A stretch of 58,170 bases of DNA, filler included, from Dugesia japonica (GCA_001938525.1; 6 parts of 6 records of this genome joined end to end with filler, not necessarily neighbours in it); one strand, 5' to 3'. Counted from the whole stretch's first letter, positions 13,375-55,315 are shown. Made by a program: numbers and translations. Notes: generated from the letters alone by a model not told the origin.

Positions 13375-13475
13375 AATTCATTAGAATTCATTTAAAATAA
13401 AAGCTTCGGTCAAAATTTGTTTTTTTTTTGTTTTTGATAATAATTCTATCGACTTTGTCTTCTTCAGGAAAAGCC
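13375..13475 (-). ncRNA. Hammerhead-motif element copy (degenerate, 4-nt deletion at GAAA/stem III)
   Basis: Minus strand ttttc CTGAAGA A GAC AAA GTC GA.. TA GAATT followed by the family tail aattttgaccgaagctttt. Confidence 0.65.
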
Positions 13476-13699
13476 AATAAGTCAAAACCACCAATTGTAA
13501 ATGTCGTAAATCCGTAAGGGTCAAAGGATATGAAAACAACAACTTTGGTCTTATTGTATAACTTTAAATAAAACTTTTTCAGCAACATCGGATAAAGTCA
13601 ATTCTGAGTTTTATTTAGCATTATTTATTAAATCTTCATTATTAACTTCAGTTTTGCTTTTCTTTTTTTGGATCAGAGTGTTCCTAACGAAGAGTCATG

Positions 13700-15540
13700 A
13701 TAATAACCACCTTCATGTCATATACTTTAATTCATCCCGCTTAGCCCAATATACTGGGATTTATTTGAATTATCCAAATCCAACAATCCTTTTAATGCTT
13801 CATGATCCATATGAAAAATAAAGATCTGTTCCATTAAATAGTTTTTAAATTTAAGAACAAACGTGTAAATAGAGAATATCTCTTTCCTGGTTATATAATA
13901 CTGACGTTGGTACTTTGTTAAAGATTTATTAGCATAAGCAATTATTCTGTATTTATTATCTTGTAAATGAAATAAAACGGCTCCTTTAGAGTTGAGAGAA
14001 GCATTTGTATCCAAAATATACTCACCTTTTTCTTAAGGTAGACTTAACGTTGGTGCTGAAATCAATTGGCGTTTTAATTCATAAAACGATGCTTTTCTTT
14101 CCTCTGACCATCCAAACTTCCTTTCACTTTTCAACATAGAAAATAACTCAGCAGACATTGCCGCGTAATTACTAATATATTTCCTGTAATAACTGCAGAA
14201 TCACAGGACTGTCTGTAGCTCTTTTTTACAAGACTGTAATTCTCTTTTTCTTATACTTTCAATTTTTTCTAGATCTGTTTGAACTATCTTCTTATGTCAT
14301 AATAATATATCTTGTACTGAAACCAGTTTTCTGAATATCTTTTTTTTCACCGGGACTTCTTAATAACCACTTGAAAAATACCGACTAATGAAATACATTG
14401 AATCAGAAAATTTTGAAAAAATAATTCATCTGCAGATGGAATGGAAAAAATGGGTCCAGTTGTTTTTGCATTTAAAGACCTATAGTCCATACATATTCTT
14501 GTATTTCCATTCCTTTTTCTAACAATCACAAGTAAAAAACTCCACGAAGATGTACTTTCTTTTATAATATCTCCTATTATATAATTATTTTCCAACTTAA
14601 TTTTCTAAATTCTCTGATGTTAGCCGGGCTTTAAATGCTATGAAAACCTTATTCTTTGTTTCTATTGGATGACATTTGTTTTGCCAATACCCATTTTATA
14701 TTTACTGAAAACATCTTTTATCACATAATATTTTCATTAGTGCTATAATTTCAGATTCTTTTCTTTCATTTGTCAGTGGCAATTCAATATTATTAAAAAT
14801 TCTGGCTGAGTCTGGATTATCAATCTTGGCTTCATTAATCGACAAATTTCTGCAGAATGCGTCTTCTGTGGTTATTTTTTCTTCCAGTCGTTCCAAACAC
14901 ACTAAAGTTGTTCCAGTATGGAAGGCTTTGGATCCTATATTGAGCATAGAAATATATCCAGAATAACTATTCACCAAACTATAACCTATTAATAAGTCTC
15001 TTCGATCTATTTTACTTTTGTCACCATAAAATACGTACTCTAGCAATATCTCCGATTTCTTTTTGGTTATCATTATTAAAAATCATACCTCTTATAAAAT
15101 GTTCTTCAACTTTATAAACATTTCTATTCTCAGCTACTGCACTAGGTCTACCAATATCTGTAATATGGTCGGTATTATATTAAAAATAAAGAAACCACTG
15201 TTTTTGATACAAATGGCAACAGAACATCTTGAATCATTATGCTATCTTTNGAAGGTAACACATAAATATTATGTATTTTCATACTTTTCAACCCTGTGTA
15301 CAAGTGGAGAAATAAATAAGGCATCTTGTTACAATTAATCCAATGTTTAGATTTAGTGTTCCTCGACAATTTACTGATTTTCAATTCTCACAAGTCAATC
15401 TAATTGTCGACCTTTGAATTTGAAGATCACGATTTTGATTTACTAATCTATTTGCTATTTACTAATCTAATGTTGAGATCAGCCTTAGTATCGAACATCA
15501 TTCGGATTTTCACTACTTTTAGTTGACACTAAGCAATCGG
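13700..15540 (-). mobile_element. Second Ty3/Gypsy family pol remnant (protease, RT, RNase H)
   Basis: Protease-like VKIRMMFDTKADLNI near 15470-15520. RT ESTSSWSFLLVIVRKRNGNTRICMDYRSLN (14347-14595). RNase H DTNAS...GAVL...IIAYAN...TRKE (13727-14014). Confidence 0.9.
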
Positions 15541-16519
15541 TTTATTTCTTATTCGTTCCGTTCTTGATATTGAAAAATGAAGTTTTTATAGTGATCACGT
15601 TATAGATGCAAAACTATGGCATAATAACTGTTTATTGTGCAATCATCAAATGATTACGCAAATGTTGTGCAATTATTATATAACAATACATTTTTGACGT
15701 AATACTATATGCATGACGTTGTTGGCTTTGTTGATCACCTAATAATCTGTATAAATAACNNNNNNNNNNNNNNNNNNNNNNNNNNNNNNNNNNNNNNNNN
15801 NNNNNNNNNNNNNNNNNNNNNNNNNNNNNNNNNNNNNNNNNNNNNNNNNNNNNNNNNNNNNNNNNNNNNNNNNNNNTATTAATATACTCAAATATTGGCT
15901 TAAAAATTGCATTTTATTGCATTGTTTATATTTTTATTAATTAAATCAAATAAAATTACTGATTACTAGAATGAAATTAATAAAATAGTAATATTAAAAG
16001 TATAAGAGTTGTAATTTAATTTTCATATAGCGAGAACCAATTACAGTAAACTAATTATTGGACAAAGAATTATTATTCCTTTTGGATTTTTTAAGATAAA
16101 AATATAAATATAGATGGAGTGTACTTCAAATTTATCCTCAATTTATATACAACGTTAAAAGTTTAGTTCATATAATTTGTGATAGTCGAAAAAAAGTTGA
16201 TAATTAATTTTAATATAAATGAAAAAAATAAAACATTATTGTTTTAATATTTGAATTTAATTGTATTGATAGATTAACTAATTTTAATTAAATAGAATAT
16301 TGTGTAAATCAAAAATAATATTTTTCTCTTATGTTGATTNTAATCATTTACATATTATCAAATAATATCAAATAATATTTATATTTTCCATTAATTATGA
16401 AATTCGGAAAATTTTAAAATTCTTTTCTAATTTAATTGGTTTATTCTGATTTATGTCCAAATTATTTTTTATGTCTGAATATTTCAGAGAGAATTTTATT
16501 AATTTTGAGGACTAAAATT

Positions 16520-53519: not shown

Positions 53520-53727
53520 AAATAAATTTTTTGAAAAACAAATTTTGTTATTCGAAATTTATTTTTAAATGCAAAGATCAAAATGATGTTCCAGGAGTAA
53601 TAGTTCCTGAAGAAGGCATAGCAGAAATATTGAATAATCTATGAAAATAGAAGAACATCATTTTAATTTTTGCATTTAAAAAATAAATTTTGAATAACGA
53701 AATTGGTTTTTAAAAATATTTATTTAA
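53520..53727 (+). ncRNA. Hammerhead motif (53601-53638) enclosed by a ~70-bp imperfect inverted repeat
   Basis: agttc CTGAAGA A GGC ATA GCA GAAA TAT T gaat. Arms 53520-53592 and 53652-53727 are reverse complements. Confidence 0.7.
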
Positions 53728-55123
53728 TATTCAGATCTATGATTAGATTAATTATTGAAAAGAAATTTATCTTGATGTAGATTATTATTTTTTATTTTTT
53801 TTTTGAATTGCAATCTTATTAGAAATAATAAATTAATTAAAACGCTATAGAGTTTTAGTAATAATGCAATAAACATCGAATTTAACAGTGAATTTGTACA
53901 GAATGTCATATCAATAATATTTGTAATAAATGAAAAATCTTTGTTTTAAACGATAAATTAAGCAATAGAGTTTATGACCGCTTCATATTATGTTGGTTTT
54001 GTTTCTACGATATGATTTTAGTATTGCGGGATGTATTTTGCTGTGTTAATGTACGGTAAAGAGTACTTGCATCAGTTATGTCATCTCATACCGAAATATC
54101 TATTCACATTTTAATACACATATTTCTTTTATTCTTTGGATTAAATAAATTACTCACTAATAAGACTTCTCAGTTCAATTATTATTCAACAATAAAATTT
54201 ATCATGTAAAATCGTCAATATATTTTCCAGTTTTTCTAATCTAGTGCATTTGTTGTGATATCTTAGTAGAATTAACAAATGGTTGAAATAACAAGATTAT
54301 TTGGGTCACAATGTACTCTGCTCCGAAACGGAAAATTTAATAAAGTTTAATGAAATAATTTGATTTCTTAAATTCAACGACGATTGGTACCGACGAATTT
54401 AACAAATATAATCCCCATTATCATTATTGTTATTATTTAATTATTATCAATTAAATTCACTTAAATTATTTATAAATATTTACTTTATTTTAATGATTAA
54501 ATTAATTATTAATAATTAAATTCAAAACAATAATTCACACATTTATGATTTATTAAAATATTCATTAAATACTACTGATTATTTCCTTTTGACAAGTAAC
54601 TAATTAATTCTCTATAAATTACAAGATAACAAAAACGATGTAATTGCATTAAATGAACAGAAATGTATGTTTTCTTATAAAGAAATAATGATAAATATTG
54701 TTAATAAAAAAAATTAATTAATACAATAAATAATAATAAAATATAATAAATTTATTATTAATAATAAATTAATAAATAATTAAAAATAAATATATAATTT
54801 TAAAATCATGTTTTGAAATATTTAATTTTGCGACACGATAAATTATCCTAATCTATTAAAATATTATTTAATATTATTTTGTATTTTATCAAAGTATGGT
54901 TAGTTTAACATTTGTATTGTTAGTACAATGAGTAATACAGTAAGTATAGCTATGTATGCATAGTTAGTATGGCTGTGTGTATATAGTTAGTACATGTGTG
55001 CGTAGTAAGAAATTCAAAATAGTTAGTTTTTAGTTTTGTTTTTTTTTTTAAAAATTATAATGAAAACTAATTAAACACATTTAGAAATTAAGTAATTTTA
55101 ATAAAAACAATTATATCATTTTT

Positions 55124-55315
55124 GATTTCATTAAAATAAGATAAGGCTTCGATCAAAACAAAATTTATTTGTAAAAAAGTTCAAATATTCGACATAATTC
55201 ATCATAAAATTTTGTTTTGATCGAAGCCTTATCTTATTTTAATGAAATCTCAAATCCGATCAATGATTAAGTCCAACAAATATTCTCACAATAATTGTAA
55301 TTATAATATATCATT
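55124..55315 (+). mobile_element. Hammerhead-family tail with ~43-bp inverted duplication
   Basis: gatttcattaaaataagataaggcttcgatcaaaacaaaattt (55124-55166) is the reverse complement of ~55207-55248, followed by the rest of the family tail. Confidence 0.8.

What the first reader, a model, noticed from the sequence alone, without database searches (positions are those of the whole stretch)
13375..55315. Dispersed family of short non-coding elements built around a minimal hammerhead ribozyme (retrozyme-like / non-autonomous Penelope system)
SEEN: about ten related 100-200 bp elements occur in every assembly piece except 32331-40514 (451, 13375, 16626, 17350, 18976, 30885, 43945, 45510, 45755, 55205). 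Their hand-built consensus is (caa)ttc-CTGAAGA-A-GAC-loop-GTC-GAAA-TAT/ATT-H-gaa(tt), then in most copies an A-rich linker and the tail aattttgatcgaagcttttattttaatgaaatctcaaatgcgatcaatggttaagttcaacaa. Stem sequences vary while pairing is kept: stem II GAC/GTC or GAT/GTT, and stem III switches between the palindromes ATAT and AATT. KNOWN: CUGANGA...GAAA...NUH is the hammerhead core. Penelope-like elements and animal non-LTR retrozymes carry minimal type-I hammerheads with palindromic stem III, thought to cleave as dimers. INFERENCE: this is a high-copy (about 1 per 6 kb here) non-autonomous retroelement family mobilised by PLE RT. The class is known, but this family may be undescribed. Most copies have core mutations. 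The copy at 44013-44046 keeps the full core.
Basis: partly seen in the sequence, partly recalled or inferred. Interest (0 to 1): 0.8.

Follow-up and report, generated by a model that had tools for sequence, protein, structure and literature searches.

The report
Decayed Penelope retrotransposon ends with hammerheads
These scattered 80-190 bp repeats are the worn-down ends of a protein-coding Penelope-type jumping gene, each carrying remains of its known self-cutting hammerhead RNA, so they are ordinary transposon debris and not a separate ribozyme-based element.

Summary
The family is real: 14 arms at the ten loci named. Its hammerhead shape is beyond chance: 3 near-complete motifs, against a mean of 0.0 in 429 shuffles; none is intact. 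It is not a retrozyme, and it is not wholly non-coding. No copy lies in a tandem array. Copy 453-613 lies downstream of a decayed GIY-YIG gene on the same strand. Following that gene gave a full-length Penelope-like RT/GIY-YIG protein, P0008. Its first 18 residues match the translated 'tail' of this family: three tails are the top 3 of 107,782 stretches in the window. So the repeat is the pseudo-LTR (hammerhead, linker, start of the ORF) of an autonomous element, left behind as 5'-truncated insertions. Four loci are head-to-head pairs with the tail on one arm only, and two of eight tested have 10-12 bp target duplications, as published for Penelope elements. Self-cleavage is untested. One lead remains: one pair's junction sits at the predicted cleavage site. 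New family member of a known kind; interest 0.25.

The parts
1197..1413 (-). Decayed GIY-YIG endonuclease end of the parent Penelope-like ORF, broken by a frameshift near 1350
   Evidence: tblastn of P0008: 86% over residues 767-787 and 61% over 785-835, E 7e-18; also P0004 and P0006
614..1196 (-). AT-rich 3' UTR between the ORF end and the pseudo-LTR
   Evidence: Position between GIY-YIG and family copy; its ORF-proximal part is homologous to 17560-17772
453..613 (-). Family arm with long tail; the hammerhead itself is too decayed to call here; 452-505 codes for the ORF start
   Evidence: nhmmer model 5-171; 12 of 18 residues identical to P0008 1-18, E 2e-5
13373..13475 (-). Single short arm; hammerhead C3 at 13467, CUGANGA and stem II kept, GAAA/stem III damaged
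   Evidence: no tail, and a suspected small inverted partner was not supported
16520..16625 (-). Inverted arm with long tail, partial hammerhead and an internal deletion
   Evidence: non-seed nhmmer hit 16600-16520, E 6e-8; tail score 33, 0 of 300 shuffles
16621..16717 (+). Short arm, head-to-head with the previous one; hammerhead C3 at 16632 with several G-to-A and C-to-T changes
17347..17772 (-). Longer 5'-truncated arm: ORF end and 3' UTR followed by a hammerhead (C3 at 17380, one deviation), cut by an N gap
   Evidence: homology to 1100-1230 score 76 against shuffle max 47 (0 of 200), to 625-1100 score 71 (1 of 200)
17778..17817 (+). Start of an inverted arm of the same 3' UTR, running into an N gap
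   Evidence: self-inverted match 17642-17815; sequence
18962..19075 (+). Single short arm beside a (TA)n run; best-preserved hammerhead stems at 18976-19012 (C3 18982, predicted cut 19006/19007, G8 changed)
   Evidence: stems I and II are the minimum-energy fold of 18976-19013 but not of the longer 18972-19014
30885..30964 (+). Single short arm, hammerhead partly deleted
43940..44049 (-). Short arm; hammerhead C3 at 44041, single-strand core kept, stem II closed by G-U, 9-nt duplication at the cut site
44042..44096 (+). Inverted arm consisting mostly of the tail; the junction is an 8-bp palindrome overlapping stem I
   Evidence: non-seed hit E 8e-6; 10 of 18 residues identical to P0008 1-18; tail score 60, 0 of 300
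45514..45630 (-). Long-tail arm that begins at the predicted hammerhead cut site
   Evidence: nhmmer model 45-171
45625..45663 (+). Short inverted arm that also begins at about the predicted cut site
   Evidence: non-seed hit 45637-45663, E 1e-3; junction sequence
45753..45835 (-). Single short arm truncated inside the hammerhead core; 10-bp direct repeat at 45748-45757 and 45848-45857
   Evidence: 1.6% of 500 null flanks
55117..55205 (-). Short arm with the 3' half of the hammerhead; preceded by a 12-bp target duplication at 55112-55123
   Evidence: 0.6% of 500 null flanks
55206..55306 (+). Inverted long-tail arm; followed by the target duplication at 55307-55318; 55254-55307 codes for the ORF start
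   Evidence: 11 of 18 residues identical to P0008 1-18
49599..49931 (-). RT thumb and linker fragment of the same Penelope-like lineage, cut by the scaffold end
   Evidence: 81% identity to P0008 594-704, E 6e-47, one in-frame stop
29788..29850 (+). Short fragment of the RT-EN linker of the same lineage
   Evidence: 65% over 20 residues of P0008, E 0.04; top scorer of the control 18-mers

Best explanation
The repeat is the pseudo-LTR (pLTR) of an autonomous, endonuclease-bearing Penelope-like element (PLE), and the copies are its 5'-truncated, decayed insertions. Parent anatomy: an RT-GIY-YIG ORF of about 840 aa (size from the relative P0008), a 400-580 nt AT-rich 3' UTR, a minimal type I hammerhead, an A-rich linker, and the first ~20 codons of the ORF. 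SHOWN: the linkage to GIY-YIG and 3' UTR; the coding tail; two classes of 3' end about 50-55 nt apart; head-to-head pairs with the tail on one arm only; target duplications at some loci. INFERRED from published PLE work: the element's protein nicks AT-rich DNA on both strands and starts reverse transcription inside the RNA at two sites near the ORF start. One site gives the short arm and the other the tailed arm. Most cDNAs stop in or just upstream of the ribozyme, and the two opposed cDNAs are joined head to head. The copies then decayed, and none keeps an intact ribozyme. INFERRED and untested: in the parent RNA the hammerhead cut tandem or read-through transcripts, as a dimer through the palindromic stem III or helped by the element's protein.
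For: (1) The GIY-YIG remnant 1413-1197(-) lies upstream of arm 613-453 on the same strand. (2) The DNA upstream of hammerhead 17380(-) is homologous to the ORF end and 3' UTR of that remnant (0 of 200 and 1 of 200 shuffles). (3) P0008 was reached from the GIY-YIG fragment alone and carries RVT_1 and GIY-YIG matches. Its residues 1-18 score 64, 60 and 42 against three tails, the top 3 of 107,782 stretches; the next best is 28; 0 of 300 shuffled queries reach 64. (4) 3' ends are bimodal: 5 arms end at model position 165-171, 7 at 101-121, one at 140 (extended by a local duplication) and one is cut by a gap. The tail is significant in 5 of 14 arms tested, and in exactly one arm of each of 4 clear pairs; 3 of the 5 were seeds of the model. 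(5) Exact 12-bp and 10-bp flanking repeats at 2 of 8 family loci tested. (6) The same anatomy is published: the pLTR holds the first 12 aa of the ORF and 22 with the tail, an adjacent inverted pLTR, a tail on one arm, 8-10 bp TSDs (PMC3846280); PMC8557442 Fig. 2 legend; two internal RT start sites defining the tail, and both strands nicked (PMC11167929); most minimal hammerheads are single or opposite-strand motifs from truncated PLEs (PMC4209133).
Against: No full-length pLTR-ORF-pLTR copy is in the window. At locus 453-613 the hammerhead is not recognisable, so the ORF-to-hammerhead link rests on combining two loci, and the central 3' UTR match is only moderate (1 of 200 shuffles, AT-rich). 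The N-terminal match rests on one protein: of P0008-P0014 only P0008 matched the tail, with a window-wide tblastn E of only 0.087. Six of 8 loci have no convincing TSD, and 18 tests were run. The tail here is about 50-55 nt, against 30-40 bp in the papers read. Four single arms show no 3' UTR upstream, so eight of ten loci start at or near the ribozyme, a clustering that random truncation does not obviously predict.
Confidence: 0.88

Rival explanations
1. A non-autonomous family derived from the pLTR: short solo pLTRs carry their own promoter and RT start sites, are transcribed, and are re-copied in trans by the PLE protein.
For: Eight of ten loci begin within about 20 nt upstream of the hammerhead core or inside it, with no 3' UTR. 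pLTRs suffice for mobilisation in trans (PMC3846280). Non-autonomous PLE derivatives are known (MRC1; PMC8557442).
Against: Start points and junctions differ at every locus, and two loci extend into the 3' UTR and ORF. The subfamily differences (stem III ATAT/AATT, loop II 3 or 4 nt) can equally come from several autonomous subfamilies.
Confidence: 0.08
2. A non-LTR retrozyme: tandem 150-450 bp units, each with a working type I hammerhead, expressed as circular RNA; the window copies would be its dispersed monomers.
For: Type I hammerhead, low GC and co-occurrence with PLEs. A 2026 preprint reports retrozymes derived from pLTRs, with many dispersed monomers (10.64898/2026.07.22.740005).
Against: None of 56 tandem-repeat rows covers a family copy. 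Paired arms are inverted, not head to tail. No intact ribozyme is present. The motif is the minimal PLE type, not the canonical type described for retrozymes (PMC7229834). The tail is ORF sequence.
Confidence: 0.02
3. A MITE or foldback DNA element with long terminal inverted repeats; the hammerhead likeness is inherited or accidental.
For: Several loci are long inverted repeats that fold into strong hairpins (z -11.5, -5.4 and -3.6 for three of four pairs) and some have TSDs.
Against: The arms are asymmetric (tail on one side), the centres differ at each locus, single arms are as common as pairs, TSD lengths differ, and the arm sequence is PLE ORF start.
Confidence: 0.01
4. The hammerhead likeness is a chance pattern in an AT-rich repeat.
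For: No Rfam hammerhead hit reaches significance. Single copies do not fold better than shuffles in 4 of 5 cases, and the fifth folds into a different structure.
Against: 3 near-complete motifs against a mean of 0.0 in 429 shuffles. 85% of 79 cells pair in the hammerhead structure against 22-50% for slid partners. The motif sits where PLE hammerheads are published to sit, and an unrelated PLE in the window has the same architecture about 70 nt after its ORF.
Confidence: 0.01

Closest known systems
pLTRs of endonuclease-containing Penelope elements of Adineta vaga, e.g. Pen2a_Av (PMC3846280; passages and Discussion read)
   Same: The pLTR includes the ORF start; an optional tail extends it to about 22 codons; an inverted pLTR lies head to head; the tail is on one arm; TSDs are about 10 bp; internal microhomology deletions occur.
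   Different: The tail here is about 50-55 nt against 31 bp. The copies here are old and far denser (about 1 per 5.6 kb in this window). No full-length copy is seen.
Minimal and near-minimal hammerheads of metazoan PLEs (PMC4209133; parts 1-2 of 4 read)
   Same: Type I; extra base between positions 9 and 10.1; G10.1-C11.1; small palindromic helix III; mostly single or opposite-strand motifs from truncated PLEs.
   Different: Helix II is only 3 bp here (6-8 bp in the Schistosoma and Drosophila examples) and helix I reaches 6 bp. No copy is intact.
PAc, Poseidon of Anolis carolinensis (PMC11167929; parts 1-2 of 4 read)
   Same: Hammerhead near the ORF start; the tail lies inside the ORF; two classes of 3' end; AT-rich targets.
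   Different: In PAc the ORF starts within stem II and the RT start sites lie 111-118 nt into the ORF. Here the matched start lies about 60-70 nt after the cut site. Different clade; no biochemistry here.
Hydra clade of C-terminal EN+ PLEs (PMC8557442; section 11 and passages read)
   Same: The closest full-length relative P0008 has DKT in place of DKG and a CxCX5C linker. One copy abuts (TA)n.
   Different: P0008 keeps the CxxC inside GIY-YIG that the Hydra clade is said to lack. No tree with reference elements was built.
Animal non-LTR retrozymes (PMC7229834, part 2 of 6 and passages; bioRxiv 10.64898/2026.07.22.740005, parts 1-3 of 5)
   Same: Type I hammerhead, low GC, dependence on PLE enzymes, proposed origin from pLTRs.
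   Different: No tandem head-to-tail units, no intact ribozyme, inverted arrangement, direct continuity with ORF remnants.

Membership tests
EN+ Penelope-like element pLTR | Lies 3' of an ORF with RT and C-terminal GIY-YIG | tested here: met
   GIY-YIG remnant 1413-1197 upstream of arm 613-453; ORF-end/3' UTR homology upstream of hammerhead 17380; RT thumb of the same lineage at 49931-49599
EN+ Penelope-like element pLTR | pLTR plus tail contains the first codons of the ORF | tested here: met
   12, 11 and 10 of 18 residues identical to P0008 1-18; top 3 of 107,782 stretches; rests on one relative
EN+ Penelope-like element pLTR | Type I hammerhead within the pLTR | tested here: met
   3 motifs with one deviation each
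EN+ Penelope-like element pLTR | 5' truncation and head-to-head inverted copies | tested here: met
   4 clear pairs, and a fifth at 17347-17817 cut by gaps
EN+ Penelope-like element pLTR | Optional tail on one end only | tested here: met
   Tail on exactly one arm in 4 of 4 pairs; about 50-55 nt, longer than the published 30-40 bp
EN+ Penelope-like element pLTR | Target-site duplication of variable length | tested here: inconclusive
   Convincing at 2 of 8 loci (12 and 10 bp), weak at 2, none at 4
EN+ Penelope-like element pLTR | Full-length ORF between two direct pLTRs (partial tandem) | not testable with these tools
   Not in the window; no eukaryotic genome collection was available, and the prokaryotic genome scan found no relative
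Minimal type I hammerhead | CUGANGA, GAAA, NUH, G10.1-C11.1, extra base after A9 and palindromic helix III at family level | tested here: met
   Each feature is the majority state in the 9-row alignment
Minimal type I hammerhead | An intact motif in a single genomic copy | tested here: not met
   0 motifs without deviation
Minimal type I hammerhead | Covariation in the stems | tested here: inconclusive
   7 cells with two-sided change (10 of 500 shuffles); 3 are one stem III switch; the single stem II change is in the family 2 row; relatedness is not controlled
Minimal type I hammerhead | Self-cleavage as monomer or dimer | not testable with these tools
   Needs in vitro transcription. Cofolding predicts dimers paired through stem I, not a defined active dimer
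Rfam hammerhead families | Score at the gathering threshold | tested here: not met
   No hit in the window; best local score 14.3 against 56.3 bits
Non-LTR retrozyme | Head-to-tail tandem units of 150-450 bp | tested here: not met
   No family copy in any of 56 tandem-repeat rows; window only
Non-LTR retrozyme | [quoted passage not shown] | tested here: not met
Non-LTR retrozyme | Expression as unit-length linear and circular RNA | not testable with these tools
   No RNA data
MITE / foldback DNA element | Shared symmetric terminal inverted repeats and a shared internal part | tested here: not met
   Asymmetric arms and a different junction at each locus
Hydra clade PLE | DKT motif and CxCX5C linker | tested here: met
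   Present in relatives P0008-P0011; not readable intact in the window
Hydra clade PLE | CCHH motif absent from the endonuclease | tested here: not met
   CxxC is present within GIY-YIG in P0006 and P0008-P0011
Hydra clade PLE | Placement in an RT phylogeny with reference elements | not tested
   No reference PLE set was on hand

The most novel reading that the evidence does not exclude
The insertion junctions record hammerhead cleavage in vivo. Both arms of the pair at 45514-45663 begin at the predicted cut site, the arm at 44042 may too, and eight of ten loci start in or just before the ribozyme. If junctions peak sharply at the cut site genome-wide, cleaved 3' products serve as templates for PLE integration and yield a short cut-site-to-tail unit that may re-mobilise. 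That would bear on the open role of PLE hammerheads, which PMC8557442 calls unclear; PMC11167929 found no RNA reads ending at the site. The same junction can also be explained by microhomology at a 6-bp palindrome.
Probability: 0.15. Interest if true: 0.6.

Novelty: new member of a known kind. Interest (0 to 1): 0.25.

Why it matters
As it stands it matters for annotation: a dense repeat family is assigned to a parent Penelope-like element, and it shows that single or inverted minimal hammerheads should not be filed as retrozymes without checking the tail against PLE N-termini. The pairs fit a two-start-site, two-strand integration model, but that anatomy is already in print. It would matter more if a genome-wide junction map showed a peak at the ribozyme cut site, or if the parent lineage (Hydra-type RT motifs with a canonical CCHH endonuclease) proved to be an unnamed branch.

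Tried and rejected
Rfam scans: no hammerhead in the window at E<=5; local scans gave 14.3 bits for RAGATH-1 at 18960-19028 and no hammerhead at 51060-51200. The miRNA hits at 55132-55241 and 53567-53677 merely reflect the inverted pairs. Pfam on 25 window fragments did not recognise the short PLE pieces. A word-index search with the 54-aa GIY-YIG fragment found nothing. The scan of prokaryotic genome contigs with P0008 found no relative. A suspected inverted arm at 13466-13510 is not supported (tail score reached by 154 of 300 shuffles). Four single arms show no 3' UTR upstream. Arm ends from the permissive local alignments were noisy and not used for the two end classes; two searches were. 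Other CTGANGA...GAAA matches at 37359, 43074 and 4451 fail the descriptor. The direct repeat 4393-4652/5362-5612 was aligned and holds no shared hammerhead. The sigma-70 promoter scan does not apply to a eukaryote and was ignored. No structure prediction was run, since the proteins are of a known family.

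
Full report
Setting. The window is six scaffold pieces joined by N44/12-bp/N44 linkers, about 25% GC, with 55,893 called bases. 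It holds kinase exons and LTR-retrotransposon remnants, so it is taken to be an AT-rich eukaryote, probably an animal, given the endonuclease-bearing Penelope-like elements (inference). The host was not identified.

Observation. The ten loci exist. Self-BLAST links them. A profile from 11 arms finds 14 arms at E<0.001, three of them not in the seed, while the reversed window gives nothing better than E=0.49. A descriptor for minimal type I hammerheads finds no perfect motif and three with one deviation (C3 at 18982+, 44041-, 17380-), all in this family. In 429 shuffles the mean was 0.0 (max 1) at that level; at two deviations 3 were seen against a mean of 0.21 (max 3). I wrote the descriptor after seeing the family, from features listed in PMC4209133. 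In a 9-row alignment (8 of the family arms plus one copy of a second family) 85% of 79 cells pair in the hammerhead structure, against 22-50% when partners are slid. Covariation is thin: the ATAT/AATT switch in stem III is two-sided but probably a single event, and the stem II variant at 44041 is two wobble-producing C-to-T changes. That copy is therefore not intact. Rfam does not recognise the motif, and single copies do not fold into it reliably, although stems I and II are the best fold of 18976-19013.

Link to a protein-coding element. Arm 613-453 lies on the same strand, about 580 nt downstream of a frameshifted GIY-YIG remnant at 1413-1197. The DNA upstream of the hammerhead at 17380 is homologous to the end of that ORF (score 76; shuffle max 47, 0 of 200) and more weakly to its 3' UTR (71; 1 of 200). 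A search of the 48-aa endonuclease fragment returned 4 proteins, two of them true relatives (P0004, P0006) and two repetitive false hits. P0006 returned 7 longer proteins. The best, P0008 (843 aa, RVT_1 and GIY-YIG), is 81% identical to an RT-thumb fragment at 49931-49599 and 61-86% to the remnant at 1410-1203. P0008 was reached without using the repeat. Its first 18 residues match the translated tail: 12 of 18 identical at 505-452, 11 at 55254 and 10 at 44050. These are the top three of 107,782 six-frame stretches, with the next score far lower (64, 60, 42, then 28), and no shuffled query of 300 reached 64. Of 269 other 18-mers of P0008, only those from residues 724-735 scored as high outside the masked remnants, at 29788-29850, another fragment of the element. 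Limits: only one of the seven long relatives shows this match, its window-wide tblastn E is 0.087, and the true start codon may be the ATG four codons earlier.

Insertion anatomy. The 3' ends fall in two classes, near the start codon (model 101-121, 7 arms) and about 20 codons further on (165-171, 5 arms); one arm reads to 140 through a local duplication and one is cut by a gap. A direct test finds the 50-nt tail in 5 of 14 arms tested (13 of the profile's arms plus one suspected arm; the gap-cut arm was left out). Three of the five were seeds. Four loci are clear head-to-head pairs (16520-16717, 43940-44096, 45514-45663, 55117-55306), and in each exactly one arm has the tail. A fifth, longer pair at 17347-17817 runs into gaps on both sides. 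Junctions differ at every locus, so the pairs arose independently. Exact flanking repeats of 12 bp (55117 locus, 0.6% of 500 null flanks) and 10 bp (45753 locus, 1.6%) were found. Two more loci have weak candidates and four have none; two loci were not tested. No copy is in a tandem array. Copies are roughly 76-92% identical to their consensus by permissive alignment.

Comparison with print. PMC3846280 (passages and Discussion) describes pLTRs holding the first 12 residues of the ORF, 22 with the tail; an adjacent inverted pLTR, most often head to head; the tail on one of the inverted arms; and 8-10 bp TSDs. PMC8557442 (passages and section 11) gives the same scheme. PMC11167929 (parts 1-2 of 4) shows in vitro that both strands are nicked and extended, that two internal RT start sites define the tail, and that the hammerhead is protein-assisted and dispensable for insertion. 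PMC4209133 (parts 1-2 of 4) reports that most minimal hammerheads are single or opposite-strand motifs from truncated PLEs with low activity. Retrozymes are tandem units with canonical ribozymes expressed as circles (PMC7229834, part 2 of 6 and passages); a 2026 preprint derives them from pLTRs (parts 1-3 of 5; its supplements were closed). I opened no supplements. Those of PMC4209133 and PMC8557442 list hammerheads and PLE families and may bear on whether this family is described.

Mechanism. Shown: linkage, coding tail, two end classes, asymmetric inverted pairs, some TSDs, decay. Inferred: two-strand target-primed reverse transcription from two internal start sites, early truncation and head-to-head joining. 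PMC3846280 offers self-priming on an antisense template as an alternative for the inversion, and these data do not decide between the two. Inferred and untested: cleavage of parent transcripts by the hammerhead, as a dimer or with protein help. Rivals are a re-mobilised solo pLTR (0.08), a retrozyme (0.02), a MITE (0.01) and chance (0.01).

Novelty. Five literature searches addressed the class, not this organism, and Repbase and Dfam were not available, so I do not claim the family is undescribed. The class and anatomy are known. Two leads remain. First, eight of ten loci start in or just before the ribozyme, and one pair starts at the predicted cut site on both arms, which could record cleavage in vivo (probability 0.15). 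Second, the parent lineage combines Hydra-clade RT and linker motifs with a CxxC-bearing endonuclease, and no tree was built. Verdict: observation confirmed, interpretation partly supported, new member of a known kind, interest 0.25.

Noticed in passing
window 52122-51216 (-) and 51144-51104 (-): A second, unrelated decayed PLE (RT end, thumb and GIY-YIG; 43-71% to P0001/P0003; these lack the cysteine linker) with its own hammerhead about 70 nt after the ORF. It has a 5-bp stem II, a 6-nt near-palindromic stem III and three departures from the descriptor, each a T where C is expected (read by eye).
   Followed up: partly
Weak match to the main family (E 0.033), and its tail also reads RSM in one frame. 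Probably a diverged relative.
   Followed up: partly
P0006, P0008-P0011: The parent lineage has DKT and a CxCX5C linker as described for the Hydra clade, yet keeps CxxC in the GIY-YIG domain; it may be an unnamed intermediate branch. No tree was built.
   Followed up: partly
window 17363-17372, 45822-45831 (-): In one subfamily stem II plus loop II is a perfect 10-bp palindrome, so this helix could also pair between two molecules.
   Followed up: no
window 3773-4123, 13730-14032, 14350-14604, 31813-32230; 2854-3800 against 40615-41531: LTR-retrotransposon remnants. RNase H-like domains are confirmed by Pfam for the first two; the others look like RT or integrase by eye. Two stretches are 82-84% identical copies.
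   Followed up: no
window 1-382 (-): Integrase-like fragment (rve_3, E 0.003, below cut-off), partly duplicated at 8-148 and 242-382; the long tail of arm 453-613 ends just beside it.
   Followed up: no
window 21142-21747 (-) and upstream to about 27900: Exons of a host protein kinase gene (Pkinase); it resembles STE20/SLK kinases (label recalled, not tested).
   Followed up: no
window 33873-34224 and 39406-39769: A 65%-identical inverted repeat of about 370 bp spanning 5.9 kb, with an unassigned ORF at 37883-38152 between; possibly an old DNA transposon with long terminal repeats. This is the one scaffold piece without family copies.
   Followed up: no
window 11673-12291/12342-12954, 29138-29395/29446-29703, 50765-50823/50874-50932: Near-identical direct duplications on both sides of 50-N gaps, probably unmerged contig overlaps.
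   Followed up: no
window 46750-46985, 18395-18625, 8269-8517, 20261-20406: Minisatellites with periods 17, 90 (and 16), 31/93 and 14/16; none carries a hammerhead.
   Followed up: no
window 4393-4652 and 5362-5612: A 73%-identical direct repeat of about 260 bp, 970 bp apart, of unknown nature.
   Followed up: partly
window 43040-43135 (-): A GC-rich stretch with a CTGATGA start that fails the hammerhead descriptor; it resembles the ends of hAT-type miniature elements (recalled, not tested).
   Followed up: no
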